From an uncultured Candidatus Peribacteria bacterium (GTDB lineage: Bacteria > Patescibacteriota > Gracilibacteria > BD1-5 > UBA2023): a stretch of DNA of 64,000 bases. The DNA lies in assembly GCA_964553745.1 (NCBI GenBank), contig CAZKLD010000004.1, positions 32,945 through 96,944 of the forward strand. Reading direction: 5' to 3'. The notes under the pieces are model-generated. The model was not told where the DNA came from and did not search any database. It was given only the letters and a program-made list of their open reading frames with translations. Both the position numbers and the translations under genes were made by a program. Below, one piece after another: positions 12,452 to 40,992 of this stretch; the first letter of the stretch is position 1; every line of letters starts with the position of its first letter.

Positions 12452-12850
12452 TTGGACGCACTGGGGGAGTGTATTTTCACTTCTTCTTAGCTCGTTAACA
12501 TATATTTTGAATTACACATTCTTGTGTATATTTGACGAGTTTTTTCCCTTCTTTTCTTTGTTTTAAATGACGAGAGGAGTGTTGCGGGTAAAGATTGGCC
12601 TCATAGAGGTCAATCTTCTACACAACCTCCTCTCGTTATGCCGACATAACGGAAGGTTAAAGCTTTGACCCTCCAAGATTTTATCTTTCTTGGAAGCGAT
12701 TTACAGGGATGGTCTCCCCGTAGATCAAAACCCAAAACAATGTTTGTTTTAAAGGCATAGCCTAAGCGCATTCATTGTTCGTTTTTTGGAATAGGAGCAA
12801 TCCTATCCTGCAAAAACAAAAATTTTTATTTCTTAACTTATAGTAATCCT
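12452..12850 (+). promoter_or_regulatory. long structured 5-prime leader of the S-layer gene
   Basis: A chain of stem-loops: ACGAGAGGAG 12570-12579 pairs with CTCCTCTCGT 12627-12636 and encloses AAGATTGGCCTC/GAGGTCAATCTT; CGTTATG/CATAACG at 12634-12651; further stems at 12651-12674, CCAAGA/TCTTGG at 12673-12693, 12698-12726, 12734-12750 and 12788-12808. No Shine-Dalgarno sequence precedes ATG 12851. Confidence 0.5.
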
Positions 12851-15800
12851 ATGAGTAATCTTTCTAAAAAAGTTACTTCTGCTATAAGTGTAGTTGCTAT
12901 AGTTGCATCTGCGGTTGGTTCTTCAATCGTTGCTGCTGCTTCTGGTTTCCTACCTTATGCTGAAGCTTTGGCTACTGCCGGTTATATTCAATCTTCATCT
13001 AATGAAGCTGGATACAGACTAGCAGATACTGCATCAAGACAAGAAGTTGCTGGTACAGCAATCAAAATGAAACTTGGTACAGGTTCTACTGCACTTCCTG
13101 CAAATTATTCTTGTAAAGGATACTTTACTGATGTTTCTGCTACTACTCCAGCTAGCTGGTCATGTAGAGCTGCTGAATTAGCAGCTGACAACGGTATCGT
13201 TTCTCAAGCAAACGCTAAATTCCGCCCTACTGATAATATTACTAGAGCTGAAGCTCTTGCAATGGTATTGAAGGCTGCTGGAATGGAAATTCCTACTGTT
13301 ACTACTTCATCATTCAATGATGTTACTATTGCTTGGCAAGTTAATGTAGCTGAAGCTGCACTTGCTAAGAAAATCATTTCTGCTAACGCAAGTTTCAGAC
13401 CAAATGATTCTGTATCAAGAGGTGAACTATTTGTATTTGCTGCTAACGCTTTAGGTCTTAGTGTTGATGATTTCAACCTTGATGACATACTAAACGGTGG
13501 TGACACTTCAACTGGTACTACTTCAACTGGTACTACTTCAACTGGTACTACTACTGAAGTTAAAGCTGGTGATCTTAACATATCTCTAAATCCTGCTTCT
13601 CCTGCTGTTGGAACTCAAGTTCCTATGTCTGGAATAATCAGATTTGCAGTTGTTGATTTCAAGGCCGCTTCTTCTGATGTAACTCTTAGTTCAGTTGAAC
13701 TTAAGAAAGCTGGTCTTTCTACAGTTTCTTCTTCTACTAAGGTATGGTTCGAAAAGAATGGTCTAAGACTATCTGGTAAAGCTTCTTTCACTTCTGAAGG
13801 TAACGCTATCGTTTCTTTCGCTCCATCTATAGTTATTAAAGCTGGTGCAACTGAATCTCTAGACCTTTACGTTCAATTGGCTGATAGTGTTGCTGGTACT
13901 GACTACCAATTCGTATCTGGAAACATCCTAAGCTCTGCTCAGAATGTTGCTGGTGCGTTCATGACTCCTGTTCTAAGGACTGCTAACTATACAGTTGCAA
14001 CATTCAATGCTGCTGCTGCTTCTTCTGGTGCAGATTACAAAGCTTCAAACGATGTTATCGAACTTGGTGCTTTCAAAATCTCTGCAACTAAGACTGGTTC
14101 AGTTACTGAAACAAGAGACGAAAAATTCCAATCAGTTACTCTATACCAATCTGGTACAGCTAACTTAACAAATCTTTCTAATATCGTTCTAGTAAGAAAC
14201 GGACAAGTTATCTCTTCTGGTGCAACTGTTGCTGGAAAAGCTCTTACTTTCGTTGTTAACGATATCATCAAAGACGGTGCTACTGCTACTTACTACATTA
14301 AAGCTAACATCAACAATGTAGAAAATCAAACTGATAGCTACCAATTCTACCTTAAGAATACATCTGATATCAGTGTAATCGAAGCTAATTCTGGTTTCCG
14401 CGCTAACGCTGATGCTACTACTGAGACTTCTAGATTCGTTGCTTCTCTTTACACTGTAAACGGAGGTGATGTTAAATTTGATAGAGACCCTTCTGTTGCT
14501 CTTTCTGCTAATTACGCTCCTGGAACTGATAATGTTGTTCTTATGCAAGGTACAATCACTGCTAAGAATGCTGTTACTCTTGAAGATCCAAGCCTAACTA
14601 TCAGCAACCTAACAGGTACTGGTAATCTTTCTAACTACTTCAATACTCTTTACCTAACTGTTGGTAATTCAGTATTCTCTGCAACTGCTGCTGGTACTGG
14701 TGGTGCTTCTATTGTTTTCAATGGAACTACTACTATATCTGGTACTGCTCAAGTTAAACTTTACGGTACACTAAAGAGCACTACTAATATGCCTGATGCT
14801 ACAATCAAATTCGGTGACTTGACTCTTGCTTCATTTACTGGAACAAATCAATACACTGCTAATCAAAACAATGTTACTTCTGCTGTAGGTTCTATTCCTG
14901 GTATCAGCGTTTCTGTTGCTAACACTTCTCTTAACGTTACTCGTAACGATGGGCTTGGTGATACTTCACTTGCTGCTGGTTCTAAATCAGTTGTACTTTA
15001 CGGAGTTCAACTTTCTTCTACAAGAGGTAATCCTGTTAACGTAACTTCTGCTAGCTTCCAATTTACTGGATCTGGTACTACTGCAACTGGTTTTGTAAAT
15101 AACGCTTACGCTACTCTATACGTAGATGGTGTTGCTGTTTCTTCTAAGACTGTTGATTCTACTAATTCAATCAAATTTGATGGAATCAGTGCTACTGTTA
15201 ATCCTTCTAAAGCTGTTAATCTAGTTGTTAAGGCTGATTTCTCTGATAACTTCCAAGGTGGAACTATCAGGACTGCTATGACTGCTATAGCTGCTGTTGA
15301 TTCTATCAGCTCTAAGGATATCGTTGTTTCTACTTTCCCAGCTGGTGCTATATTTACTGTTCAGGCTGCTAGCGCTACATTCGCTGCTTCTGACGCTAAT
15401 CCACAAGCTAGCCTATTCTTGGCAGGAAGTACTAACAATAAACTATACGCTGTTAAAGTAACTGCTGCTAACGATAATGTTAATCTAAAGACTGTTGCCC
15501 TAACAGGTACTGGTCTTGGAGCTTTCGCTAACTTCAAACTTTACGATGCTGCTGGTGCTCTAGTTGCTAACTCTTCTTCTGAAAGCGCAACTGCTGTAAC
15601 TTTTGATAACATTGACGCAACTAAATCTACTGTTGCTCAAGATAAATCAGTAAGTTACGTAGTTTCTGCTGATGCTAACACTAATACTGATGCTACTGGA
15701 ATCCAATTGGTTCTTGGAAGTGCAGTAATCCGTGGAAGCAATGGTCTAGAGATCAACGCAACTACTACTTCTATCGCTTCTAACCTTCACGCTGTTGCTC

Positions 15801-16231
15801 AAAACACTGCTGTGATCGCTAAGGCTACTAACCCAAGTAAGGAACTTACAACTAGCGCTCTAAGATTCTCTGTTGCTGCTTCTGGTAAGAACTCTGTTAC
15901 TATCTCTTCACTAAGTCTTTCTTCACTTCTTTCAGGTTACACTGGATCAACTGTAGTAAGCGTGTATAAGGATAGCATAAGCGCTTCTAACCTTGCATTT
16001 ACAGGTACACTTGGATCTGCACAAACTCTACTTCCTACTGCAAACGCTAAAAACACTGTAGATGCTGGATCAACTGCTACATATATCGTAGCTATTGAAG
16101 GCACTATCATTGATGCTACTGCTCAACAAAGTTCTTGGACTATATCTTTGAATGATGTTGTATTCGGTACTGCAATCTCTGCTAAGAACTACTACAATGT
16201 TGGACAATTCCCAATTACTGAAGTTAAATAA
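12851..16231 (+). CDS. S-layer-like surface protein: signal peptide, SLH anchoring domains, T/S/G linker, repeated beta-rich domains (1126 aa)
   Basis: The only long standard-code ORF in the window. The N-terminal signal peptide is KKVTSAISVVAIVASAVGSSIVAAASG. SLH repeats include FTDVSATTPASWSCRAAELAADNGIVSQANAKFRPTDNITRAEALAMVL and FNDVTIAWQVNVAEAALAKKIISANASFRPNDSVSRGELFVF. About 900 aa rich in A/T/S/V/N with no Cys follow. It is flanked by a structured leader and a strong terminator. Confidence 0.9.
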   Translation: MSNLSKKVTSAISVVAIVASAVGSSIVAAASGFLPYAEALATAGYIQSSSNEAGYRLADTASRQEVAGTAIKMKLGTGSTALPANYSCKGYFTDVSATTPASWSCRAAELAADNGIVSQANAKFRPTDNITRAEALAMVLKAAGMEIPTVTTSSFNDVTIAWQVNVAEAALAKKIISANASFRPNDSVSRGELFVFAANALGLSVDDFNLDDILNGGDTSTGTTSTGTTSTGTTTEVKAGDLNISLNPASPAVGTQVPMSGIIRFAVVDFKAASSDVTLSSVELKKAGLSTVSSSTKVWFEKNGLRLSGKASFTSEGNAIVSFAPSIVIKAGATESLDLYVQLADSVAGTDYQFVSGNILSSAQNVAGAFMTPVLRTANYTVATFNAAAASSGADYKASNDVIELGAFKISATKTGSVTETRDEKFQSVTLYQSGTANLTNLSNIVLVRNGQVISSGATVAGKALTFVVNDIIKDGATATYYIKANINNVENQTDSYQFYLKNTSDISVIEANSGFRANADATTETSRFVASLYTVNGGDVKFDRDPSVALSANYAPGTDNVVLMQGTITAKNAVTLEDPSLTISNLTGTGNLSNYFNTLYLTVGNSVFSATAAGTGGASIVFNGTTTISGTAQVKLYGTLKSTTNMPDATIKFGDLTLASFTGTNQYTANQNNVTSAVGSIPGISVSVANTSLNVTRNDGLGDTSLAAGSKSVVLYGVQLSSTRGNPVNVTSASFQFTGSGTTATGFVNNAYATLYVDGVAVSSKTVDSTNSIKFDGISATVNPSKAVNLVVKADFSDNFQGGTIRTAMTAIAAVDSISSKDIVVSTFPAGAIFTVQAASATFAASDANPQASLFLAGSTNNKLYAVKVTAANDNVNLKTVALTGTGLGAFANFKLYDAAGALVANSSSESATAVTFDNIDATKSTVAQDKSVSYVVSADANTNTDATGIQLVLGSAVIRGSNGLEINATTTSIASNLHAVAQNTAVIAKATNPSKELTTSALRFSVAASGKNSVTISSLSLSSLLSGYTGSTVVSVYKDSISASNLAFTGTLGSAQTLLPTANAKNTVDAGSTATYIVAIEGTIIDATAQQSSWTISLNDVVFGTAISAKNYYNVGQFPITEVK
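13505..13549 (+). repeat. 3 x 15-bp perfect tandem repeat (ACTTCAACTGGTACT) encoding (TSTGT)3 linker
   Basis: Read directly at 13505-13519, 13520-13534 and 13535-13549, between the SLH region and the body of the protein. Confidence 0.9.
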
Positions 16232-16264: not shown

Positions 16265-16301
16265 AAAAAAAATCCTCCCGATTCATCGGGAGGATTTTTT
16301 T
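16265..16301. terminator. strong rho-independent terminator, A-tract/T-tract flanked (bidirectional shape)
   Basis: AAAAAAAA-ATCCTCCCGA-TTCA-TCGGGAGGAT-TTTTTTT, 34 nt after the S-layer stop. Confidence 0.85.
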
Positions 16302-16514
16302 GTGTAAAGATTGCAAAGATTGTGTGGAAGTATTGAGAAGCTTCTTGATATTTTCCGATTGTAGCTATAGTTGCTATTGCTGATACATGAAAATCAATAC
16401 AAACAAGAATTGCTGGTGAGGCATCAGCCTGACGGAAATGTGCTCATGCTGAATCAGGGTAAGGCAAATATTGCCTAGTAAACAAATTTATTTTAGAAAG
16501 GTGCGAATATAGAA

Positions 16515-16548
16515 AAGAGCCTAGGACCTCAGGTCCTAGGCTCTTTTT
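16515..16548 (+). terminator. rho-independent terminator closing a short orphan transcription unit
   Basis: AAGAGCCTAGGACC-TCA-GGTCCTAGGCTCTT followed by TTTTG. Confidence 0.75.
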
Positions 16549-16593
16549 GTTTCGTCGGTATGGATACTTAAGTGCTAAGCCCTAAAAGAAGTA

Positions 16594-16672: not shown

Positions 16673-16852
16673 ATGGCCCCGACTGATATGGATTGGATGA
16701 AAAAGAGGCAGAAGTCACTTAAGAGGATTTTGGCGAATCTCGATACTGAAGAGAGGGAGCTTGAAAAAAGGGGGATTCTATTTAAGGAAGAATTCAAGGA
16801 AGTACGTCAATCGATAAGGAAAATAACAGGAGCTATAGAAAAAAGGCAATAA
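16673..16852 (+). CDS. small basic coiled-coil protein, 59 aa (hypothetical)
   Basis: A good SD (GAAGGAGG at 16657-16664) precedes ATG 16673. MAPTDMDWMKKRQKSLKRILANLDTEERELEKRGILFKEEFKEVRQSIRKITGAIEKRQ, ending at TAA 16850-16852. It is below the ORF-track size cut-off. Confidence 0.6.
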   Translation: MAPTDMDWMKKRQKSLKRILANLDTEERELEKRGILFKEEFKEVRQSIRKITGAIEKRQ

Positions 16853-18640: not shown

Positions 18641-19381
18641 CTATTTTATCTCTAATATCTCATCTCAGATATGCTCTTTGATTTTTTCTATGAACAGATC
18701 CTCGAGAGGCGTTTTAAGGTTCTTTATCTTATCTTCAGCAATGAGATGTCATTTATTTATTATCGCAAACCTGTCGCATATGGATTCTACGTCTGATAGG
18801 ATGTGGGTATTGAAAAACACTGTCGTTCAGTTTTTCTTAAGATCAAGGATCAGATCTTTTACCATTTTCCTTCACAGCGGGTCAAGTCAGCTCATCGGCT
18901 CGTCCAAGAAAACTATTTTAGGGTCATTCAATATGGCTTGGGCAAGTCATATTCTCTGAAGCATTCATTTAGAATATTTTGCAAGAAGCTTTTTTCCGGA
19001 ATCTCTTAGTCCGACTTTGTCCAGAAGCTCATTTATCTTATCATCCATCTCTGAAGCCGGGATATTGAAGAATCAAGCATTGAATTTCAGAAATTCATAT
19101 CAGGTCAGGTATTTGTAAAGATAAGTGTTCTCTGGCATGAACCCGATCTGGGCTTTTATGCTGTTGTCCAGTTTGTCGCTTCAGAGAATCTCTATAGAAC
19201 CGCTTTCAGGATTTATAAGTCAAAGTATGCATTTCATCGTAGTTGTCTTACCTGCTCAGTTTGGCCCAAGGAATCAGAAGACCTCCCCCTCTTTTATATC
19301 AAGCGAAACATTGAATAATATCTGTTTGCCATCGAGGTATTTGCATACGTCGGTAATGAGTAGTACGCTCTCTTTTTCCAT
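18641..19381 (-). CDS. ABC transporter ATP-binding protein
   Basis: Walker A GPNGAGKTT, signature YSKGMLQR, Walker B IVFLDEPMSGLD, H-loop NTHIL. Confidence 0.9.
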
Positions 19382-19462
19382 ATTTGAATATAATTAAAAA
19401 ACGCGTCGAATTATAGCTAAATTTCTCTTTTTTGCAACATAAATTCAAAAATAGAGTTCATA

Positions 19463-19490
19463 TTGACAATATCTTAAAAAGTTTTATAAA
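19463..19490 (+). promoter_or_regulatory. sigma70-like promoter (TTGACA-16 nt-TATAAA)
   Basis: TTGACA at 19463-19468 and TATAAA at 19485-19490, 22 nt upstream of ATG 19512. Confidence 0.5.
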
Positions 19491-19511
19491 TTACCCAATT
19501 AACTTTTTCCT

Positions 19512-20729
19512 ATGAAAATAGACCAGTCTCTAGCCGAATTGATAATGGATGTGCATGAAATGACGCCTATTGAGGGCATAAACCGGTGCATGTGAAGCGA
19601 TTATTCCTCTGAAAAGAATCTGAAATTCGTTGCGAATGCTGTCCAGGCAAAGATAAGGGACCTTATCCTGACAAAGACTATATACGATAGGTATCCTCGA
19701 GACAGCATAAGAATGATGCTAGAGAATAAGCTGAAAGTGAGCGTGAATCTCTGAAATTTCTGCCTGCATGAATGCTGGCATTGTGCTATAGATTGAGATA
19801 GGAAATGAACAGCATTAGGAATCAGTTCCTTCAGACTGCTAATAGAAAAATATTCAAGAGAACTTAAGTATGTGAATTCATTCTTTTTCACAGGGTGAGA
19901 ACTCCTGGACAGAAAGGACTTTCCTGAAATTATCGAAGAAGTTCTCAAAAGATGAATAAGCCGCATAAAGTTCGTTTCCCGCTCTTGACTGGCTTTCCAG
20001 CCAAGGAATGTAAGGGCGATCGTGGCTCTTAAAGAAAAATATCCTGATTTCGAACTCGATTTGACTCTATCGATGGATAATTATTCAGACACCAACAACC
20101 AGAAAGCCAATAAATATCTCGACAGGCTGACGGAGCTTGTTTCAATGCAATTCGAGACATTCAAGAAAGACAAGATCGACCTGATCTCGACAATCCCTTT
20201 CGATGATGCTGAGGAAGCGGATAAACAATTCAAAATGATAATAAGGAAGATAAACAGGCTCTGAAACAGGGTTGTGAAAGCCTGATTTGTCTTTAAAGGG
20301 CATGAGCTCGTTGATTGATATGATAATTTCAAATTTGAGAAAGATTGAAGGAAATTCGAGATTTCTGCAGTCTATCAGATGCTGGTATGACGATCTGATA
20401 AGTCCAAAGATATCAAATGATCATGAAAACTGTTGAGCCGCGAAGATGCTTGCAAATATCTCTATTTTTCAGAGAACTCGACTTTTTATGCAGACGAAGC
20501 AATGAATTTGAACTACTGCTCCCATATCGCTCATTGATTCGAGGGCGGGAATTGAATCATAAACCTTATGGACAGCCCCAAATCAAAGGTCATAATGATG
20601 TTTCTTCACACTCGTCAGAGATTCTACAGGCTCTTGACTTATGATGAGATTGTAGATTATGTCCTCAATCCAGAAAATAAGCATCTGTGTTCAAAATTGA
20701 GGCAAGAATTATCAATAATCAAGAAATAA
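19512..20729 (+). CDS. radical SAM domain protein (405 aa), unassigned subfamily
   Basis: The frame was checked codon by codon. Canonical cluster motif VNLGNFCLHECWHCA (CX3CX2C, 19761-19784), followed by FFFTGGELL. Confidence 0.8.
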
Positions 20730-21982
20730 TGAAGACCGACAACGCTCATATACCATCATCTCTGAAATTCATGATGGAAGTTCCGGAATGAAAGAGGTAT
20801 ATTGAAGAGAATTTCAGGTTCTGATCTGACATCGGATTTATAAATTGAATATCTTGAGAGGATTTGGTCTGAAAGCTGGAAATGGAAAAAAGCCCGAGAT
20901 TGCTCGATCTGGTTTCTAAGAATTTTCTGATCAAGAAAATCCTGGAAAGCCCTGATCTCGACCACCTGCTCCTTGCGTTATCCCAGAAATTCAAAATAGT
21001 AAATCTGTTCATTAGTACCTGAAACAAATGCAAGCATGACTGTAAGGATTATTGTGTGCTAAAATGAAATCCCAATTGACAAAGCATTGATTTCAGCAAA
21101 TATGTCGCATTCCTTGATAAATATTCTTCACTCCTTGAAAATATAGGATCGCTCCACCTCGTATGACAGGAATTTCTGCTTATGGACAGATTTGAGGATT
21201 ATCTCGAAGAAGCCTTGAAAAGAGGAATCACCACTTTCTGAATCGTAACCCGCTGAGCCTGAAGCGAAGAAAACAATGACTCAGCCCTTGCAAAAATAGC
21301 CCAACTGAAAAAAATTCATCCGCAATTCAAAATGTATCTGACGACATCATTGGACAGATATTCGACACTGAATGCCAAAGACCACAATGCGATGATCAAA
21401 AACCTCTACAAGATAATAAAGATGCATCTGTATCTCTTCTGAGAGAAGTCTATCCGCATCCAATCCACCGGTTCGGTATCAAGGGATAATTGATTCCCTG
21501 AAATAAGGCATTCTGATATGGAAGATATAACAGATGACATGAATGCGATACTCTCTCTTCTGGAAAATGATTGAATAATGCATGCTGACACCGAAATCAA
21601 ACCAGGCATGACCGTCATTACAATGAATGACGGCAAGATTATAGAGCTGACTCTAAATAGGCGAAAGAATGTATATGATGAACCGAGGCTGAATGACGTT
21701 GCAATGAGCAGGGATGAATCATGAGGCACGAAATGCGAGATGATCGACAATCCTTTCCATATATACCTAGATAAGGATTTCAATCTCCTCACCTGCATGT
21801 GATTCCACGATATGTATTACAGGAAAAAATGAACCCTTACGAATGTGCTGTCAACTTCAAATGAAGATGTGCTGAGGGTGCTCATGGAAACTAGAAAAAG
21901 GGCTTTCAATTCCCTTTCCTATGTAGAGCTTGCCGAATACTTCCGAAATCCGAAAGATATCTATATCTGCGATAAGATTTAA
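20729..21982 (+). CDS. radical SAM-like paralogue (417 aa) with variant CX3CX3C motif
   Basis: The ATG overlaps the upstream stop (TAATG). The frame was checked codon by codon. The motif is VNLFISTGNKCKHDCKDYCV (21029-21055). It is colinear with the upstream gene: LKEKYPDFELDLTLSMDNYS vs LKKIHPQFKMYLTTSLDRYS, and C-terminal YDEIVDYVLNPENKHLC vs YVELAEYFRNPKDIYIC. Confidence 0.75.
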
Positions 21983-22068: not shown

Positions 22069-22686
22069 ATGTGCGACAACTGCGAAAATAATTACCAGAA
22101 ATTAGTGTCCATAGACGCTGATGCCCCTAGATTCGATCTTCCTGCCTATGATCCCCTCAAGGATGAGGAGACTGGGGTTGTGCTAGAGGATCTTAAATGA
22201 AAATGGACAGTGCTTTTTTACTATCCGGCTGACTTCACCTTCGTATGCCCTACGGAACTGAAGGATATGATGGACTCTAAATCCGAGTTCGACGAACTAG
22301 GAGTCACTGTGCTTGCCGCTTCGACAGACACTCAATTCTCACATAGGGCTTGGGTTAAGAATGAGAAGCTCATGAGTGGATTTCCGTATCTGATGCTTGC
22401 CGACCATGCCCTATGAGTGGCTGAATCATATAATGTCCTCGACTACAAGACTTGAATAGCTGCAAGAGGAACTTTCATAATCGATCCGGATCTCGTATGC
22501 AGATGAATCGAGATAACTTCGTGACCTCTGTGAAGGAATAGCGATGAGTTGATCAGAAAGATAAAGGCGCTCCAATATATGAGGGCTCATCCAGGAACTG
22601 CTTGCCCTGCAAAATGGGTATTATGAGCAAAAACCCTTACTCCGTCGATGAAAATCTCAGGAGAAGTTGCGGACGCTCTCAATTAG
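22069..22686 (+). CDS. typical 2-Cys peroxiredoxin (AhpC/Prx1 type) with N-terminal CxxC extension
   Basis: WTVLFYYPADFTFVCPTEL (peroxidatic Cys), GTFIIDP, and the C-terminal GTACPAKW (resolving Cys). The N-terminus is MCDNCENNY. Confidence 0.9.
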
Positions 22687-22704
22687 AAGGAAAAATAATA
22701 TTTG

Positions 22705-22734
22705 GCCCGAATTCTTTATGAATTCGGGCTTTTA
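22705..22734 (+). terminator. rho-independent terminator
   Basis: GCCCGAATTC-TTTAT-GAATTCGGGC followed by TTTTAT. Confidence 0.75.
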
Positions 22735-24193: not shown

Positions 24194-24256
24194 TCCTCTT
24201 TACATTTTTGAAAATTTTATAGAATCTGTTATCGAATAAGTCTTAATAAATACATT

Positions 24257-25018
24257 ATGCTAAACATTGCAATCAATACATTCCGTGAATTGGCCAGAAA
24301 CAAAATACTCTATCTTATCCTGTTCTTCTGAGTCCTGCTTATAATATTCTCGCTTGCACTTGCGTCTCTTTCCATGTGACAGACAGATAAGATCATAATC
24401 GATTTCTGATTGGCGATGATCGAGATGTTCTGATTGGTTTCTGTAATATTCATCGGAAGTCAGCTCATATTCAAGGAGATAGAATGAAAGACCATATATC
24501 TGATACTTTCAAAGCCTATTTCAAGATATCAATTCATCCTAGGCAAGTTCATTTGATTTGCCATGATCCTAGCTTGTATAATATTCTTCCAGTCAGTAAT
24601 ATTCTGAGCGCTCCTCGTATACTCGAAGACGGCTTTTGTTTACCTCATACCAGTATCTATCGTATTCATCTACCTTAAGCTTCTTGTACTTTTTGCAATC
24701 ATACTTTTCTTCTCGACATTCATCTCGTCCATATTGTCCATTGTCTTGACCATGCTTGTCTATGTGATTTCGCATTCTCTCACTTCAATAATAGATATGG
24801 CTGTTCATGCCAAGAGCATGGCACTGCTCAATATCGGCAAGGTCCTGTATATAGTCTTCCCTAATTTCGAATGACTGAATATTAAAAATTTGATATTATC
24901 TCCTGTCATCATAGACTTTAAATATATTTCCCTAAACTCTCTCTACGCAGTTACCTATCTCGTTCTGATTCTCGGGTTCACTATAATCATATTTAACAGG
25001 AAGACATTTGAAAACTAG
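24257..25018 (+). CDS. ABC-2/NosY-like transporter permease (six predicted TM helices)
   Basis: MLNIAINTFRELARNKILYLILFFGVLLI... KEIEGKTIYLILSKPISRYQFILGKF is the typical N-terminus of ABC-2 family permeases. Confidence 0.6.
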
Positions 25019-34477: not shown

Positions 34478-34846
34478 ATGGTAAATTGGAAGCAGAAAAT
34501 AAAAATAAATATATTAATGAAAGAAAAAGTTAAAGAGCTTCTGATTCAAAAACAAGATTCCAATTCTGTCGCAAGGAATATGTTGGAATACATTGAATAT
34601 TTCACTGAACAGGAGATTTCCGACATCTATATCCTTATTTCCGATAAGGAACTTGAACAGAGGAAGGAGATACTTCTCAGGAATCTTTCTGAATATGAGA
34701 ATACAATCGAAGAGATAGTCAAAATCGGCCTCAAATTCGAAAGGCTGAAGACTATAATGATGTATGAAGCAGTGAAGAAACAGAGCAAGGAATCCCTTGC
34801 AAATCTGAAATCCTCACTGAATCTGACTCCCCACACAAATAATTAA
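34478..34846 (+). CDS. hypothetical coiled-coil protein, up to 122 aa, first gene of the ORFan island
   Basis: Track ORF with no TGA. An internal ATG giving MKEKVKELL is an alternative start. K/E-rich and helical. Confidence 0.6.
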   Translation: MVNWKQKIKINILMKEKVKELLIQKQDSNSVARNMLEYIEYFTEQEISDIYILISDKELEQRKEILLRNLSEYENTIEEIVKIGLKFERLKTIMMYEAVKKQSKESLANLKSSLNLTPHTNN

Positions 34847-34857
34847 CAAAAACAAAA

Positions 34858-37800
34858 ATGGCTGAGATAAGAAATGAGATCCTAGACCTTTCTACTGATA
34901 ATGGTCTGAAAAAGCTTAATACTATCTTCGATTTTGCAAAAGCAAAACTCCAGAAGGTCGAATCGAAAATATGAGATTTTTTGAGATCCCATGGCTTCGA
35001 TAAGCATTTATCAAAGAACTATGACGGGAAATTGGACAAGTCTTCGGACACACAATCTGAGATAATCTTCAATAAGCAGATTCTCCCGCTTCTTAATGAT
35101 TTCAAAAGAAACAGACATGTTTTATCAAAGAAAGAATTAATAATCAAGTTATCCTGAATCATAGAGCAGGCCGAGCTTCAAGAGAAATTCTCACTTAGCC
35201 AATCGCAAGGCAAGGACATGTCCGCAATGCATACGGAAAGCAGAAAACAGATAGAGAATGAACTTCTGAAATGAATAGACAATGAATTCCATGCAAAGAA
35301 GCTTGATGTTGTTACTGATCAGAATTTCGAGAAATCAAAAGAGGCTGAACTGAAGTGAATGCTTCTTGCATTGAGCGCATGAACATTATCGTCGGCTCAA
35401 TTTGAAAGCAGATATTTCGCAATCATAAAAGAAACGTGAAAAATAGGCTGAATGCCGATGCAAGCTAGGTTGCTTGAGAGATTCTGAAGCATTGCAAAGC
35501 CGATGATGTCAAGCTGAGCAGCTCCACTGCTCCTTATGATTTCCAAAAAAACAAGGAAAATACTCCCATGATTGCCGCTTCTTATATGAGGCTGAATATA
35601 TGCCAGCCTTTTCTTTACCCTCAGATCAAAAGACATATCCGCATGAACCAAGGCTACAGAAGTGAGCAAGACTGTCTGAGAGACTATTCTGAATATCGCA
35701 CCGATAACAGGAACGATAATGTCCGCTAAGGATACAATACATGCTTTCCGCAGATGAGATAAGGCAGACGCTATTGCATGCTGAATCGGTACTCTGGTGA
35801 GCTGAGTTTTCGATTGATTTACCATAGTGTTGGTTGCCAGCTGAGTGGGTATCCCATGAGCCGTAGCTCTGAGTTCTGTCAAGAATGCGGTCATAAGATG
35901 AGTTGTTAAGCTCTGAGTCAAGCCATTGTCTAAAATTGTGGCAAAAGAAGCCGCGGAGAAGATTGCCGCGGAGGCTGCATCCCAGACTTGAAGACAGATA
36001 ATAAAGGAAATATGAAAATCCTCGACTGAATTCCTTGTCCAGAATTCCAAAGTCGCATGGAAATGAATGAGGCATAATACAAGAAAGATGATACTCTGAA
36101 AAAAAGAATGATGAGAATTGGTCAGCAGATGATTGGTTCATGAAACCATGGACTGAGTGAAACAGATATTCACTTTCAAACACGCGAGAGACTTGGTTAT
36201 GGGAAAGTACCATATGCGCCAGTATAAGAAAAATCCTGAAGCCCTGAAGAGTAAGAATTTCAAGAAATATAAGGAAATGGAGGAGCTGGCAAAAGAGAAA
36301 GATGCCTCTATCAGATCTCGATCGATTACCGAATCCAAAATCGCAGAGCATAATATGTCACAGAATAAAGAGCTTGAAGACTGAGTCTTGAAGCTCAATG
36401 AAAATGATTCCGAGAGTTCAGTCTCTGGTATGGTGCATGATGCTAGATATGATTCTGATATGAATAAGGATTTGAATTCGCATCTTAATGCAGAATTTAG
36501 ATCAGAAACCGATAATTTAGCTAAGGAACTCGATGCGAAGAGACACGAAAGGAAGCTTAAATTTGAATCGTACATAGCGGCAATTGAGTCAGAATGCACA
36601 GTAAAATGAACCGAGAACATAATCTCAAAACTTGATTTTGAGATAAATGGGCTTATTAAAGATTGAGTTGAAATACAAAATCTAGAATCAAGCTTCAAAC
36701 GAGCATGAGATTGGTTTAGGTGAACATTGGATAAGATTGCAAGATGAGAAAAGCTAAATAAGTGATACAGGGATCCGGAATATTATGCAAACAATCTGTA
36801 CAAGTTAAAAAGCTGATTGGAATTGAGTAGGAAATTGAAAGCTGACAGATTCGAAAAAGTTGAGAAGCTACTGGATTCTCTAGAAAGGAGATCCTACAAT
36901 AATGAGACTACCGACCACCAAAAATTCTTCTATTCAAAAGTAGAAGAAATCATAAAGAACAGACAGCTCTGAGCCGATGTGAAGAAGCTCATCCTTGAGC
37001 ATCTGACCCCGCAGCACATAAACGAATCGCTTGTGAAGAATAATGTCCTGCCCAAACTCATACAGGAAATATTGTCTAGCAATATTAGCATTACCGAAAA
37101 AGTTGATTTCCTCACATTCCTGAAAACAGAGAAAAATGTGAATAATATCTGACGAGGACAAACTCTCTATAAATTTGCTCAAGACGAGCTCAATGTCATA
37201 ATTAAAGAAATAAAAGGATTCGGTTCAGAATGAGCTTCAGATGCGGGCATATTATCTTTTCAGGAAAATTTCCGTGAATATGACAAGCTTATAAGATGAT
37301 TCGATCATGATCTGAAGATGGACTTGTCAGCTATCACTGGGGCGGTAACTGCACACTTCGGCAAGATGGAAGCTTCAGCAAAAGTTAGAACCATAGGCTT
37401 CCTGAAGAGGCAAAATATGCTTAATTATCATCTTGAGGACAAAACATTCTCTGATCAGGTTCTTGAACTTATAGTGAAGTGAATGAATGACAAGACCGAC
37501 ACAAGAAGTATCCGCTGAGCCTTGAATATGTGATCTTACCTAGAATGAACGAAGTTCAGCGAAGTCTGACAACTCTATAGCAGGACTCTTCTGAATAAGA
37601 ATGCATGAAAAGGGTTGGAATCCGAATGATTATGGTCCACGCGTGATTTTAAATCAATGATAAGAGAATCAGTCGATGATCCGAGAATATTGGCGCTTAA
37701 ACATAGGAATGAAAATGAATGAAATGAAAAATTATTCCAAAAAAATACCGATATCATGTGACCGAATTCAGGCATTAAATTATTGGAAAGCATAACAAAA

Positions 37801-40800
37801 GAGGTATTGAAATGAGATACCAGAAGCATCCTAGGCTACTTATATGAAATATCAAAAGAACCTAAGACTACATTTACGATGAGCGCGCATAATGCTGTCC
37901 TAAAGGAATTTTTCCAAGAAATCAAGAACGGAAAAAGATCTGAAGAAGTTGTTAAATTCACAAAGGAAATTTGCGTATATATAAAGGATCAGAATGAGAA
38001 AATGACGCTTCCGTTTAAAGAAATGCAAGAATGCATCTTGGAATGTCTCAAAGCAAGCAGAAAGATATCAATGGATGAAAAAGTGGCTTTCACTAAGATT
38101 CTTGAGCTCATGCCTTTAAGTGAAAAGACGTATTTATCCTTAGGTTCAACAGAAAGGGCTATATTGGCAAAAAGGATGATGGAATTAATTCCAAATGAGG
38201 GTATGGAAAAGAATCAGACTGCCATAAATATACTGGATAATCTGATGACATGAAAAATAGACGATCCTGTTGATATGATGTATAAAATAGCATGATTGAA
38301 TTATCTTCAGAGGAACAAACATGAATACGGTAAGAGATTCCAGAGCATCTTGAGCAAGAGAAAAATTTGAGAAGGCTGAGAGACTATACGCGAAATGGCA
38401 GAGAGATTGATGGAAAACAAAAGATCTCTTTTGCAAGAACTTTTCGCATTAAATCAAAATCAGATTGGTACAGGCTGAAAAGAAAAGACTCTCCTTTGAT
38501 TAGATTTGGAGATTACGAAAGATTGAGAATTCTTCCTGACTCAGAATTGATGATGAAACAGGATTGAAATCGACGTGTGATCAAAGCTCAATGCAAGCTA
38601 TGATTATATAGAATTGGCCTTGACAAAATCACCAATCATAAACTCATGAGAAAAGGAGAACATCCTTATCATATCTAAAATCCTAGAAAAATATTGAAAT
38701 ACTTGATTGCTGGAAAAATTCGAACACGCATGAAGCCATGTCAATCTCTCGAATATTTCAGAAGTGCTGAATAATTCTAAGAATCTAGAAAATATGCCAC
38801 AAGAGCTTATAATAAAATTTTTGAGGGAATTTGAGGCGAAACCTTGAGATGTGGAGCTATGAGATAGATTTGTCTCTCAGATGGTAATAATCAGGAAGTT
38901 CCTTAAAGAAAAAGGAAAAGAGGAGCATTATTGAAGAACAATCGAATACATAGAGGACCTGATGTCAAGAAAGGAAGTTCATCTGCTTGATCACCAATTA
39001 TCACTAATCGCGAATCTCTGAGTCAATAAGACGGTTCAAAAGAAAGCATATAAGGAATTCCTCAATAATAGAGTAAATACTGCAGAGGAACTAGAAGGGC
39101 TATTGACACATCCGTTATTCAAGAGGATACAGGATGATGCATGAGTTGATTTCAAGTACTCAAACCATAATATAGCAGAAATAATCTTGAAGGTCTTGAG
39201 TGCCGAAAAAATAAGCGCGGAGCAATTCAATAGATTATTCATCCTTGCTGAACTCATAAAGAATAAATCAGTTTTCTATGTTGAAACAGATTGAAGCAAG
39301 GACACTATAAAAGTGCTTAAAGAGGCTTTCTTCAAAATAGCCGATCATAAAGATCCGATGAGCCAATCCATGATTGATAAGCTGTTCGAAATCAAAGAAC
39401 TCTTAAAGGATAGAGATGTTCTTAATTACTTTGAGGCAAGGCTTAAAAATGCTCCTAGCTGATCTCTCGAAGCGACAACTCTCATGAACAGATTTTTTGA
39501 CTGAATATATAAGCATTATAAAGCTTCCTCAGAGATTGGCTTTAATGTCCATGATAAGGCCGTATTCGATAGGATTCAAAAGGCTGTGACCAAACATCTG
39601 TTGTCATTGAATATAAAATGAGGCAAGATGACATGAGAAGAATTTGAAAAGAGACTAGATTTGAAGACTAAGGAACTCCTGTATGGGAACAAAATCGAGA
39701 TAGCATGAATCGAAAACTGAAAAGTGATTTATAGGGATTCCAAGACTTGAGAAAAGCTAGAAAACCTAGAGAGCATCCAACTTTTAAGAACTGAAAAAAT
39801 CATTAAAGGCATAGAAAAACATCTTGTCATTGCCGTTCGTGCTGCAATGAATGAGAATTCCGAAGGGAAAGGCTGATCGGATTTGAATGCTGATATTCTG
39901 AAAAAACTGTCTCCGAACGTCATTGATGAACTGAATAACCTGAAAATTGAAGTCAAGGCAGATATCAAGCTTATTGAGATTGCAGAATTCCAGAGTAAAT
40001 TTATAAGAGCCTCATCTGACACTGAGAAATACAGAATCTTGAATGAATATAAAGAAAGGCTTTGAGACCATGGAGTGGAAATAAGGGCAGCCAATAAATG
40101 ATGAAGGATAAGCCTTCAGTATCTGGATTCAGATGGTGGGGCAATTGATATGACAAGGCTCGTTGGGCTTGTTGATAAGGCTACATGAAAAAATATTGAG
40201 TCCACTTCATTAGCGGGGAATATGAATATTATCGATTCCATATTGAGTTGATCTAAGGCTTGATTGTGATGGTTGAGATGAATCGTATGATGATCAAAAG
40301 AGTTATTAGACGAAAATCTTGCGTGAAAAGAAAAAATATGACATAATGTAAGCAGGCTTGCCTTCAATGAAGTGATGAGCACCAAGAAAGCAAAAATAAT
40401 CATACCTTTAGCAATAACTTTTTGACTAATGACAGCCAAACAAGCACAGGCGATGAACCAATCCGTTCTGGATGATGCAGAAATTGCAGCCCAGGATGCA
40501 CTTAAAGTGAATGCCGAATATCAGAAAGCCGTCAAGGAGGGCAATCTAGGGCTTAAGAAAGAGATTGAAGAAGAGACCATCCGCAAGATGACAATCCTCA
40601 AGGCCCAATCATTGTTCAATGACATGCAGATGCAGGTTGATAGGAAAATTGATGAGATTGTGGATAAGTCTCTTGCTAAAACTAATGATATCATAGTGAC
40701 ACCATTACAGAAGGATAAGATTAGAGAATTATTCAAAGAGGAAATGTACAAATATATGATTGAGAACAATGATACTGGAACTAGATTTGAATCACCTTAT

Positions 40801-40992
40801 GAGAATTCAAAAAAATCCTGACTTCCAGCTGAGAAGATAATATCAAATGCATTAAAATGAAATGAGTTGCTTGAGAATGAAATCAGAGATATCTTGAATA
40901 ATATAAACAGCAGAATTAGTACTCCTATTGATAATGAATGAATCAGAAGATTAAAATTCATTATATGGTCAGAATTTAATTCCTTAAAATAA
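34858..40992 (+). CDS. giant hypothetical protein, 2044 aa, with a glycine-zipper/hydrophobic module near the N-terminus
   Basis: Read line by line in frame 1: no TAA/TAG for 2044 codons in AT-rich DNA, from ATG 34858 to TAA 40990-40992. It joins track ORFs 36157, 36388, 37879, 39883 and 40429. Mostly K/E/N/L-rich helical sequence, with hydrophobic G/A/V/I stretches about 165-330 aa in and one near the C-terminus (KIIIPLAITFGLM). Confidence 0.8.

What the first reader, a model, noticed from the sequence alone, without database searches (positions are those of the whole stretch)
19463..21982. Translationally coupled pair of paralogous radical-SAM genes; the second copy carries CX3CX3C instead of CX3CX2C
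Two colinear paralogues of about 410 aa lie behind one good promoter (TTGACA/TATAAA at 19463-19490) and overlap as TAATG at 20727-20731. Copy 1 has the canonical CLHECWHC motif (19761-19784). Copy 2 has CKHDCKDYC (21029-21055), one residue longer between the second and third Cys while keeping the aromatic residue before the last Cys.

Both share blocks outside the cluster motif (LKEKYPDFELDLTLSMDNYS vs LKKIHPQFKMYLTTSLDRYS) and related Cys-containing C-termini. I cannot place them in any named radical-SAM subfamily by eye. No substrate peptide gene or cofactor pathway gene is adjacent, and CPR genomes are otherwise metabolically minimal. They are a candidate heterodimeric or two-step radical-SAM system of unknown function.
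Basis: partly seen in the sequence, partly recalled or inferred. Interest (0 to 1): 0.65.

Follow-up and report, generated by a model that had tools for sequence, protein, structure and literature searches.

The report
Duplicated orphan radical-SAM enzyme pair
Two overlapping sister genes in a tiny UGA-recoded bacterium encode iron-sulfur 'radical SAM' enzymes from a rare, fast-evolving, uncharacterised family, and the second copy has an unusual but conserved cluster-binding motif; close relatives manage with one copy, so this is a local duplication and not a fixed two-part machine.

Summary
Gene A (19512-20729, 405 aa, CLHECWHC) and gene B (20729-21982, 417 aa, CKHDCKDYC) overlap as TAATG. 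They are paralogues (26% identity, E=2e-27) and sit behind a TTGACA-16-TATAAA promoter that is invariant in four species.

A scores as Pfam Radical_SAM. B does not, but its orthologue models as a radical-SAM/twitch fold. Both keep 3+3 invariant Cys, which suggests a radical-SAM cluster plus one auxiliary cluster in a twitch-like C-terminal domain.

The family is tiny: 17 hits among 1.84 billion representative proteins. Every locus whose DNA I read uses TGA as a sense codon. No curated family claims it. The nearest known relative, still remote, is the peptide epimerase YydG/EpeE.

The pairing is not general. The nearest other species (L005, L079/L110) carry one copy in the same slot, and A groups with that single copy. 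Only one other lineage (L007) shows a tandem pair.

B's CX3CX3C and GGE→GQE are conserved in its orthologue, and B is constrained as strongly as A, so it is neither a pseudogene nor an error. The substrate is unknown. The family evolves about 3-10 times faster than its neighbours, which hints at a peptide or protein substrate. Heterodimer versus two-step action is untested.

The parts
19463..19490 (+). Sigma-70-type promoter of the pair: TTGACA (19463-19468), 16-nt spacer, TATAAA (19485-19490)
   Evidence: Sequence. Both hexamers are invariant in W, L001, L005 and L110. Top hit of the consensus scan. Function is inferred, not shown.
19512..20729 (+). Gene A: 405-aa radical-SAM protein (code 25, 16 in-frame TGA=Gly). 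It is the orthologue of the single-copy gene in related species.
   Evidence: Pfam Radical_SAM 40.4 bits against a cutoff of 29.5. Groups with single-copy L005/L079 in 200/200 bootstraps.
19761..19784 (+). A: canonical radical-SAM cluster motif CLHECWHC (CX3CX2C; C84, C88, C91)
   Evidence: The Cys are invariant or nearly invariant in the family.
19893..19901 (+). A: GGE SAM-binding motif (G128 G129 E130)
   Evidence: The role of GGE comes from general radical-SAM knowledge.
20070..20078 (+). A: S-x-D (S187, D189), a family-invariant motif at the position of the ribose-binding strand of SPASM/twitch radical-SAM enzymes
   Evidence: The assignment to ribose binding is an inference from my own knowledge.
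20451..20690 (+). A: twitch-like C-terminal region carrying three invariant Cys (C314 at 20451-20453, C336 at 20517-20519, C393 at 20688-20690). Proposed site of an auxiliary Fe-S cluster.
   Evidence: Invariant in all 12 family members. In the AF2 models the first two Cys flank a beta-hairpin. Distant members read CX14GX4C. Cluster binding itself was not tested.
20727..20731 (+). TAATG stop/start overlap of A and B (translational coupling)
   Evidence: The same overlap occurs in L001.
20729..21982 (+). Gene B: 417-aa diverged paralogue (18 in-frame TGA). Has the radical-SAM/twitch fold but scores below Pfam detection.
   Evidence: BLASTP against A gives E=2e-27. No Pfam hit. The AF2 model of orthologue P0003 matches AbmM, DesII, EpeE, viperin and BtrN in the PDB. 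dN is 0.24 against 0.22 for A, and pN is far below pS.
21029..21055 (+). B: non-canonical cluster motif CKHDCKDYC (CX3CX3C; C101, C105, C109)
   Evidence: Conserved as CNHECSNYC in the orthologue.
21164..21172 (+). B: GQE in place of the GGE motif (G146 Q147 E148)
   Evidence: The same change is present in B'.
21734..21970 (+). B: the same three C-terminal Cys (C336 at 21734-21736, C356 at 21794-21796, C414 at 21968-21970)
22069..22686 (+). Typical 2-Cys peroxiredoxin (AhpC/TSA) immediately downstream. This adjacency to the rSAM gene holds in all four species of the sub-clade, and the gene is possibly co-transcribed.
   Evidence: Pfam AhpC-TSA E=1.7e-32. Adjacency shown. No promoter conserved across species lies between B and prx. 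A functional link is not shown.
22704..22730 (+). Terminator-like hairpin after prx: the first such site on the + strand downstream of the promoter
   Evidence: This is a consensus scan only.
18641..19381 (-). Divergently transcribed ABC-2-type (DrrA/GldA-like) ATPase. It shares the conserved bidirectional promoter region (- strand TTGCAA-16-TATAAT at 19437-19410).
   Evidence: Adjacency is conserved in W, L001, L005 and L110. A functional link is not shown.

Best explanation
A and B are tandem, co-transcribed, translationally coupled paralogues. They belong to a small, uncharacterised, fast-evolving radical-SAM family found so far only in UGA=Gly (code 25) Gracilibacteria-type bacteria.

Each protein has three parts: an all-helical N-terminal extension of about 75-95 aa, a partial TIM-barrel radical-SAM core, and a twitch-like C-terminal domain. 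Each keeps two triads of invariant cysteines.

Proposed mechanism (inferred, not shown):
- The N-terminal triad binds the [4Fe-4S] cluster that cleaves SAM to the 5'-deoxyadenosyl radical.
- The three C-terminal Cys bind one auxiliary cluster. Its fourth iron is either free for a substrate ligand (as in MoaA or CteB) or held by a non-Cys residue.
- The radical abstracts a hydrogen from a substrate encoded elsewhere.

The substrate is most likely a peptide or protein, for three reasons. The nearest relative by sequence, profile and fold is the peptide epimerase YydG/EpeE. The next neighbours include peptide maturases (SuiB, SkfB, PqqE). The family diverges far faster than its housekeeping neighbours.

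The usual state of the family is one gene. A is the orthologue of that gene and is the standard enzyme. B is a diverged copy kept under the same constraint as A. It retains both Cys triads, the S-x-D motif and most other family invariants. It has specifically rebuilt the radical-SAM cluster/SAM pocket: a one-residue insertion gives CX3CX3C, plus GGE→GQE, L80T, F125H and D133L. I read B as a sub- or neo-functionalised partner made in fixed ratio with A. It either performs a second, related modification or acts as the second subunit of a hetero-oligomer. It is not one half of an ancient obligate two-component system.
For: - Code 25.
- Gene structure, overlap and motifs.
- Paralogy: E=2e-27.
- A is Pfam Radical_SAM; 6 of 8 family members are.
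- Family size: 17 hits with E<=1e-3 among 1.84e9 representatives, and only 2, 1 and 4 hits in the three 5.8e9-sequence searches.
- All DNA-verified members carry 14-25 in-frame TGA.
- Pattern scans find only 3 GTDB species, 2 JGI contigs and 0 viral contigs.
- No NCBIfam model comes near its cutoff; the YydG model is hit by 5 of 8 members, best E=1.4e-7.
- PDB profile search: YydG E=1.9e-6.
- AF2 models have pTM 0.74. Foldseek returns MoaA, SuiB, EpeE (TM 0.45/0.54), DesII, BlsE, SkfB, PqqE, viperin and BtrN.
- Three C-terminal Cys are invariant in 12 of 12 members. Two of them flank a predicted hairpin. Distant members read CX14GX4C.
- Single copy in the same slot in L005 and L079/L110; single copy elsewhere.
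- A groups with the single-copy genes in 200/200 bootstraps.
- B's changes at family-conserved columns cluster at the cluster loop and GGE strand and are shared with B'.
- Rates: W vs L001 neighbours are 89-96% identical (NT5C 76%), while A is 67% and B 66%. W vs L005 neighbours are 72-77% identical, while A is 32% and B 31%. dN is 0.22 (A) and 0.24 (B), with pN far below pS.
- The promoter is conserved in four species.
Against: - No biochemical property (cluster binding, SAM cleavage, complex formation) can be tested here.
- No substrate gene was found. The peptide/protein assignment rests on remote similarity (TM about 0.45-0.55, 13-15% identity) and on evolutionary rate. MoaA, a nucleotide enzyme with a 3-Cys auxiliary cluster, has the best Foldseek E-value for the single-copy orthologue.
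- The N-terminal domain is predicted to be all-helical, so it is not a canonical RiPP recognition element.
- The tree places B outside the A+L005+L079 clade. B could therefore be an older paralogue lost elsewhere and not a recent duplicate. A second tandem pair in L007 leaves open that pairing is older or recurrent.
- The structural models had to use sequences with Trp at TGA positions and shallow alignments (13-14 rows). The cluster loops have low pLDDT.
Confidence: 0.6

Rival explanations
1. B is a pseudoenzyme subunit. It still binds Fe-S clusters but no longer cleaves SAM. It serves A as a structural, substrate-presenting or electron-relay partner in an A-B heterodimer.
For: - Five of the six family-conserved positions that B has changed lie in the cluster loop and the SAM-binding GGE strand: L80T, H90Y plus an insertion, F125H, G129Q and D133L.
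- The Pfam Radical_SAM model no longer detects B or B'.
- The TAATG overlap gives coupled, near-stoichiometric synthesis.
- Published non-canonical motifs of canonical-fold enzymes (HmdB CX5CX2C, QueE CX14CX2C) keep the CX2C half that B has altered (PMC4389238).
Against: - All three cluster-loop Cys, the aromatic residue before the last Cys, the Glu of GGE, the S-x-D motif, R157 and K174 are retained and shared with B'. This is what one expects of a working SAM site.
- B's constraint equals A's.
- No evidence of physical interaction could be obtained.
Confidence: 0.25
2. A and B form an ancient, obligate two-component (heterodimeric or two-step) radical-SAM system.
For: - Translational coupling is conserved in two species.
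- B branches outside the A + single-copy clade, which is compatible with an old duplication.
- A second overlapping tandem pair exists in a lineage with 24% GC, L007/L008.
Against: - L005 and L079/L110 keep the same promoter, ABC ATPase and peroxiredoxin neighbours but have one gene.
- At least six further lineages are single-copy within the contigs available.
- The profile used against 1.84e9 representatives included B', yet returned no other full-length B-type cluster.
Confidence: 0.12
3. The family acts on a nucleotide or other small molecule, in MoaA, viperin, BtrN or DesII style. The open iron of a 3-Cys auxiliary cluster binds the substrate. A and B make or modify two related metabolites.
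For: - MoaA is the top Foldseek hit for the single-copy orthologue (E=4e-7), and viperins, BtrN, DesII, BlsE and AbmM are in the list.
- The archaeal MoaA model is A's best NCBIfam hit.
- MoaA's twitch cluster also has three Cys and a substrate-bound fourth iron (PMC6231123).
- No precursor peptide is nearby, and the N-terminal domain is not RRE-like.
Against: - All scores are far below the family cutoffs: MoaA 25 bits against 325, and PADLOC pVip only 13.5 bits for B with nothing for A.
- TM-scores are higher for EpeE than for MoaA.
- Divergence far faster than the neighbours is unusual for small-molecule metabolism.
- The distribution is patchy.
Confidence: 0.25
4. B's odd motif is an artefact (sequencing, assembly or frameshift error), or B is a decaying pseudogene.
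For: Pfam does not recognise B. The motif differs from the canonical one by a single extra residue.
Against: - The B orthologue is an intact 414-417-aa gene in independent assemblies (NCBI MAG, Logan SRR446575, JGI AMFJ01000386; the window's own B also in SRR446576).
- The CX3CX3C motif itself was read in P0003/L001, the 66%-identical orthologue.
- pN is 0.21 against pS 0.75, and dN equals that of A.
Confidence: 0.02

Closest known systems
YydG/EpeE, the radical-SAM peptide epimerase of Bacillus subtilis (epipeptide pathway; PDB 8AI1-8AI6; NCBIfam TIGR04078)
   Same: - Best match by PDB profile search (E=1.9e-6).
- NCBIfam model hit by the most family members (5 of 8).
- Highest TM-scores for both models (0.41-0.46 / 0.50-0.55).
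- Same architecture: a radical-SAM core plus one auxiliary cluster in an extended twitch domain, with no RRE domain (PMC13012085).
- An ABC-2-type ATPase is a neighbour here, and the epe/yyd operon also carries an ABC transporter (PMC7026026 and PMC12871923, abstracts).
   Different: - Only 13-15% identity, and 20-30 bits against a cutoff of 300.
- The sequence match covers the core only (residues 77-196).
- No conserved seventh Cys that could play EpeE's H-donor Cys223.
- No adjacent precursor peptide or protease.
- Extra N-terminal helical domain of about 75 aa.
- Three candidate auxiliary-cluster Cys, with the third about 57 residues after the second.
MoaA (GTP 3',8-cyclase), a twitch-domain radical-SAM enzyme
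   Same: - Top Foldseek E-value for the single-copy orthologue, and the best NCBIfam hit for A.
- Its auxiliary [4Fe-4S] cluster is held by three Cys with an open iron that binds substrate (PMC6231123). This matches the three invariant C-terminal Cys seen here.
   Different: - 25 bits against a cutoff of 325; TM 0.36-0.47; 12-13% identity.
- No other molybdopterin-pathway gene lies among the neighbours examined (MnmA, NT5C, ABC ATPase, Prx, Der, ABC-2 permease, methyltransferase).
- The Cys spacing is different.
- The family is patchy and evolves fast.
Radical-SAM enzymes with non-canonical cluster motifs (ThiC CX2CX4C, HmdB CX5CX2C, QueE CX14CX2C, PhnJ)
   Same: B departs from CX3CX2C while still offering three closely spaced Cys after the first strand of the barrel.
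   Different: Among the canonical-fold examples listed in PMC4389238, HmdB and QueE lengthen the first spacer and keep CX2C. B instead lengthens the second spacer (CX3C). I found no report of a CX3CX3C radical-SAM site in the searchable literature, apart from one passage on NifB that otherwise refers to the standard motif.
Tandem paralogous radical-SAM maturases in RiPP clusters (for example TrnC/TrnD of thuricin CD)
   Same: Two adjacent paralogous SPASM/twitch-class radical-SAM genes are expressed together (PMC3132745, for the existence of TrnC and TrnD). That each is tied to a two-peptide product is my own knowledge.
   Different: Here there are no precursor peptides, no leader protease and no seven-Cys SPASM motif. 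One copy also has a non-canonical SAM-cluster motif.

Membership tests
Radical SAM superfamily (Pfam PF04055) | Score at or above the Pfam gathering threshold (29.5 bits) | tested here: met
   A scores 40.4 bits, E=4.4e-10, and 6 of 8 family members pass. B and B' do NOT pass (no hit). B's membership rests on homology to A (E=2e-27) and on fold.
Radical SAM superfamily | CX3CX2C motif after the first barrel strand, with an aromatic residue before the last Cys | tested here: met
   A has CLHECWHC. For B this feature is NOT met: CKHDCKDYC is CX3CX3C, with Tyr kept before the last Cys, and it is conserved in B'.
Radical SAM superfamily | GGE SAM-binding motif and partial (beta/alpha)6 barrel fold | tested here: met
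   A has GGE at residues 128-130, while B has GQE. AF2 models of the single-copy orthologue and of B' both retrieve radical-SAM structures at E of about 1e-4 to 4e-7.
Radical SAM superfamily | Binds a [4Fe-4S] cluster and reductively cleaves SAM | not testable with these tools
   Needs anaerobic biochemistry.
SPASM domain (Pfam PF13186 / seven-Cys motif, two auxiliary clusters) | Seven-Cys CX9-15GX4C...CX2CX5CX3C...C motif and a Pfam SPASM hit | tested here: not met
   There are only three conserved C-terminal Cys, and no SPASM hit at E<=0.1 in any of 8 members.
Twitch domain (truncated SPASM, one auxiliary cluster) | C-terminal beta-hairpin flanked by Cys ligands, followed by a helix and further ligand(s). 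The first half-motif is CX9-15GX4C (motif from my own knowledge; domain definition from PMC6231123). | tested here: inconclusive
   C301 and C323 in P0004, and C336 and C356 in B', flank a predicted hairpin that is followed by helices. Distant members read CX14GX4C (L009), whereas A and B have N or M/F where the Gly would be. Only one further invariant Cys follows. The structural neighbours are twitch/SPASM enzymes. pLDDT is low around the first Cys, and cluster binding was not tested.
YydG/EpeE peptide epimerase (NCBIfam TIGR04078) | Score at or above the curated cutoff (300 bits) | tested here: not met
   A scores 19.8 bits, and the best family member reaches E=1.4e-7.
YydG/EpeE peptide epimerase | Conserved H-atom donor Cys (Cys223) outside the cluster ligands, with an adjacent precursor peptide and protease | tested here: not met
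   There is no seventh conserved Cys. No small conserved ORF or protease lies next to the genes.
MoaA (NCBIfam TIGR02668 / NF001199) | Score at or above the cutoff (325 / 231 bits) | tested here: not met
   25.1 and 20.1 bits, covering the N-terminal 80 residues only.
Prokaryotic viperin (PADLOC pVip) | Significant match to the pVip models | tested here: not met
   A and P0004 have no hit. B scores 13.5 bits, E=0.0096.

The most novel reading that the evidence does not exclude
B is a catalytically competent radical-SAM enzyme that holds its SAM-cleaving [4Fe-4S] cluster on a CX3CX3C loop not described before. It works as an obligate hetero-oligomer with the canonical A. The whole family is a lineage-specific peptide/protein maturase system of UGA=Gly candidate-phyla bacteria, with a substrate class not yet recognised.
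Probability: 0.2. Interest if true: 0.65.

Novelty: new variant of a known kind. Interest (0 to 1): 0.42.

Why it matters
Radical-SAM enzymes are usually recognised by CX3CX2C. A constrained paralogue that lengthens the second spacer while keeping every other cofactor-binding residue is a natural experiment. It would show how much the SAM-cluster loop can change, and whether such copies remain enzymes or become partners.

The family is also one of the very few Fe-S/radical enzymes in these metabolically minimal, probably host-dependent bacteria. It is confined to them and evolves unusually fast. Its substrate could therefore point to lineage-specific chemistry, such as a modified peptide, a surface protein or a metabolite. 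As it stands, this is an orphan family without a known function. Its value is as a defined target for expression and assay, not as a solved system.

Tried and rejected
1. **Table-11 reading.** The ORFs are fragments. I replaced it with code 25.
2. **tRNA and Rfam scans of the window.** Nothing found, so there is no tRNA-Gly(UCA) here.
3. **Code-25 translations for structure prediction and the large search.** I had to use database versions with Trp at TGA positions, which probably lowers sensitivity and pLDDT.
4. **Third word-indexed search, with a 22-row alignment.** It added only P0020.
6. **Looser DNA pattern on genome contigs.** It gave 95 stretches. Only 3 were true family members after HMM filtering.
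7. **ABC-transporter link.** The ABC ATPase next to the distant member L011 is FtsE-like and only 28% identical to the window's, so no family-wide linkage exists. The window's ATPase is of the DrrA/GldA/lantibiotic-protection class and its ABC-2 permease lies 5 kb away. This is suggestive of a RiPP-like export module, but it is not supported by a precursor or a protease.
8. **Precursor-peptide hunt.** The intergenic gaps (118 and 86 nt) hold no plausible ORF. The conserved small ORF at 16673-16852 is a charged, coiled-coil-like protein convergent with mnmA, not an obvious precursor.
9. **Anti-phage reading.** PADLOC gave nothing useful, and there are no matches in viral contigs.
10. **Link to the UGA=Gly code itself** (for example a tRNA or release-factor modification). 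The family is restricted to such genomes, but it is rare, patchy and fast-evolving, which argues against a core decoding role.
11. **dN/dS.** dS is saturated, so only pN far below pS and the relative dN values are usable.
12. **Timing of the duplication.** The NJ tree cannot separate an old paralogue from an accelerated young one.
Full report
**1. The observation**

Under the standard bacterial code the region contains only short ORFs. Reading TGA as a sense codon raises the amino acids held in ORFs of at least 100 aa in the window from 7.7k to 41k. TGA sits on invariant glycines: Walker A GPN-G-AGKT, MnmA G-LSG-G-VDS, and Der DTA-G-I. In eight large genes TGA (246 codons) outnumbers all GGN codons together. 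The window therefore uses genetic code 25 (Gracilibacteria/Absconditabacteria type). GC content is 36.5%.

With this code, gene A runs 19512-20729 (405 aa) and gene B runs 20729-21982 (417 aa). They overlap as TAATG at 20727-20731. A and B align over 359 residues at 26% identity, E=2e-27.

The promoter is TTGACA (19463-19468), 16 nt, TATAAA (19485-19490). Both hexamers are invariant in four species inside an otherwise diverged spacer. The same holds for a divergent TTGCAA-16-TATAAT promoter for the ABC-ATPase operon on the other strand.

**2. What the proteins are**

A matches Pfam Radical_SAM (40.4 bits, cutoff 29.5). B matches nothing. Across eight family members, six pass the Pfam threshold and the two B-type proteins do not. 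No NCBIfam model comes near its cutoff. The best models for A are archaeal MoaA (25 bits against 325), ArsS, YydG, Tes and MftC. Across the family, the YydG model is hit most often (5 of 8 members, best E=1.4e-7, cutoff 300 bits). A family profile searched against PDB sequences finds YydG/EpeE first (E=1.9e-6) and then GDGT-MAS. Both matches cover the core only.

I modelled two proteins with AlphaFold2:
- the single-copy orthologue P0004 (pLDDT 73.8, pTM 0.74);
- B's orthologue P0003 (pLDDT 71.9, pTM 0.74).

Foldseek against the PDB returns only SPASM/twitch-class radical-SAM enzymes at the top:
- for P0004: MoaA (4e-7), SuiB, EpeE (TM 0.45/0.54), DesII, BlsE, SkfB, PqqE, viperins and BtrN;
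- for B': AbmM, DesII, EpeE (TM 0.41/0.52), viperins and BtrN.

So B has the radical-SAM fold even though Pfam misses it.

Both proteins carry an all-helical N-terminal extension. Because it has no beta-strands, it is not a canonical RiPP recognition element.

Three C-terminal cysteines (A: C314, C336, C393) are invariant in all twelve aligned members. In the models the first two flank a beta-hairpin that is followed by helices. In the distant members the spacing reads CX14GX4C (L009), which is the first half-motif of SPASM/twitch domains (my own knowledge). The seven-Cys SPASM motif is absent and Pfam SPASM is not hit.

This fits a twitch-like domain with one auxiliary cluster held by three Cys. 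The literature describes that arrangement for MoaA, where the fourth iron binds the substrate. Fully ligated variants occur in BtrN (PMC6231123). EpeE has one auxiliary cluster in an 'extended twitch' domain (PMC13012085).

**3. How rare the family is**

- Word-indexed searches of 5.8 billion proteins found only the window's own A and one orthologue each for A and B.
- A full HMMER pass over 1.84 billion representatives found 17 proteins at E<=1e-3, of which about ten are full-length relatives.
- Every relative whose DNA I could read has 14-25 in-frame TGA codons and 18-34% GC.
- A family-specific DNA pattern hit only true members among the loci in hand. It also hit two contigs in JGI metagenomes, both from the same aquifer data set, and none in viral contigs.
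- A looser pattern, filtered with an HMM, found three species among the GTDB representatives.

The family is therefore confined, as far as can be seen, to UGA=Gly Gracilibacteria-type bacteria. Within them it is patchy.

**4. Is the pair conserved?**

The tandem, overlapping pair recurs in L001/L002/L003. This is a sister species whose neighbours MnmA, ABC, Prx and Der are 89-96% identical to the window's.

The next relatives are L005 ('Candidatus Gracilibacteria bacterium STCSWMC_176') and L079/L110. Their neighbours are 72-78% identical. They keep the same bidirectional promoter, the same ABC ATPase upstream and the same peroxiredoxin downstream, but they have one radical-SAM gene.

More distant members are single-copy in unrelated contexts as far as the contigs reach: L006, L009, L011, L013/L111/L112, L113 and L114.

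There is one exception. In L007/L008 the 77 codons upstream of the gene, overlapping it by 14 nt, are the C-terminus of another family member (E=2e-14). So a second lineage has a tandem pair, but the contig is too short to type the upstream copy.

In a neighbour-joining tree, A and its orthologue group with the single-copy genes of L005/L079 in 200 of 200 bootstraps. B sits outside on a long branch. A is therefore the orthologue of the usual single gene. B is either an older paralogue lost elsewhere or a duplicate that accelerated. The data cannot separate these.

Either way, the pair is not a general property of the family.

**5. Is B alive, and what changed in it?**

B's orthologue has the same CX3CX3C (CNHECSNYC) and the same GQE. 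Between the window and L001, A is 67% identical and B is 66% identical. dN is 0.22 for A and 0.24 for B, with pN about 0.2 against pS about 0.75 (dS is saturated). B is constrained like A, so it is neither a pseudogene nor an assembly error.

Of 26 columns conserved in at least 9 of 10 non-B members, B keeps 20. These include all six Cys, the Glu of GGE, S-x-D, R157 and K174. B changes six columns:
- L80T;
- H90Y, together with the inserted residue;
- F125H;
- G129Q;
- D133L;
- Y372F.

Five of the six lie in the cluster loop and the GGE strand. B has therefore specifically remodelled the SAM/cluster pocket while keeping the rest.

The published non-canonical motifs of canonical-fold enzymes (HmdB CX5CX2C, QueE CX14CX2C) lengthen the first spacer and keep CX2C (PMC4389238). 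I found no report of a CX3CX3C radical-SAM site, apart from one passage on NifB that appears to mean the standard motif.

**6. Clues to function**

The neighbours are housekeeping genes: MnmA, an NT5C-type nucleotidase, an ABC-2-type ATPase, a typical 2-Cys peroxiredoxin, Der, an ABC-2 permease and a PrmC-like methylase.

The ABC-ATPase / radical-SAM / peroxiredoxin core is kept in all four species of the sub-clade, while the genes further downstream differ (Der against IF-2). No promoter conserved across species separates B from prx, and the first terminator-like hairpin follows prx. These links do not extend to distant members.

No small ORF fits in the flanking gaps. PADLOC gives nothing.

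The most informative signal is rate. Between the window and L005 the neighbours are 72-77% identical, but the radical-SAM proteins are 31-32% identical. A cytoplasmic Fe-S enzyme that diverges this fast, while keeping only its cofactor residues, is more easily explained by a fast-changing macromolecular substrate (a peptide or protein) than by core metabolism. This agrees with the nearest relatives being peptide maturases. It remains an inference. A MoaA- or viperin-like small-molecule role is a live rival.

**7. Verdict**

The interpretation needs adjusting.

A and B are a lineage-restricted duplication within an orphan, twitch-type, YydG/EpeE-like radical-SAM family of UGA=Gly bacteria. They are not a conserved two-component system. 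B's conserved CX3CX3C/GQE pocket is the unusual element and the part worth testing. Without a substrate or biochemistry the interest is moderate.

Local confidence around the cluster loops is therefore low.

Noticed in passing
window 1-64000: The whole window uses genetic code 25 (TGA=Gly). TGA is the commonest Gly codon: 246 against 205 GGN codons in eight large genes. TAG was not used as a stop in those genes. No tRNA or Rfam family was detected in the 64 kb.
   Followed up: yes
L007 1-234 (and L008 3-233): A second tandem pair occurs in a lineage with 24% GC. The gene overlapping the start of P0006 by 14 nt ends with a family-type C-terminus (HMM E=2e-14, best pairwise score to window B). 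The contigs are only 1.4 kb, so the upstream copy's cluster motif is unknown.
   Followed up: partly
L009 4937-6166 (P0007): This family member reads CNHECSHY, so the third cluster Cys is replaced by Tyr (one nucleotide away from Cys). It may be a sequencing error, or a natural variant that lacks the third ligand.
   Followed up: no
window 16673-16852 (+): A 59-aa ORF with a strong Shine-Dalgarno sequence (GGAGGA) lies convergent with mnmA. It is charged and coiled-coil-like. It resembles the 42-aa ORF at L005 772-900 (KKRxKxLKxxLxxL..E+REL), so it appears to be a conserved small protein of unknown function.
   Followed up: partly
window 19394-19511, with L001, L005 and L110 equivalents: A bidirectional promoter region is conserved in four species. 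TTGACA-16-TATAA(A/T) serves the radical-SAM gene(s). On the other strand TTGCAA-16-TATAAT serves the ABC-ATPase/NT5C/mnmA operon. This suggests possible co-regulation.
   Followed up: partly
window 22069-22686: The peroxiredoxin downstream of the pair starts MCDNCEN (an N-terminal CxxC) in the two species that have the pair. It starts MCEYEN (one Cys) in L005 and has no Cys there in L079. This is possibly a coincidence.
   Followed up: no
window 18641-19381 (-) and 24194-25018 (+): An ABC-2-class ATPase (DrrA/GldA/lantibiotic-protection-like, 224 bits to drrA) and an ABC-2 permease lie 5 kb apart on opposite strands. The radical-SAM pair, prx and der lie between them.
   Followed up: partly
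window 12761-16231 (+) and 34843-40992 (+): Two very large ORFs: 1156 aa, Ala/Thr/Ser-rich and repetitive, probably a surface protein; and 2049 aa. Strong terminator-like hairpins follow the first one, at about 16270-16305 and 16535-16570. I did not examine them further.
   Followed up: no
Genome-contig loci L015-L100 (many Bryobacterales/Acidobacteria): The looser DNA pattern (GNxCx3CxHC, 36 residues, GGE) is over-represented in Bryobacterales and Acidobacteria genomes. Those proteins score 33 bits or less against the family HMM, so they are an unrelated radical-SAM family with the same spacing.
   Followed up: partly
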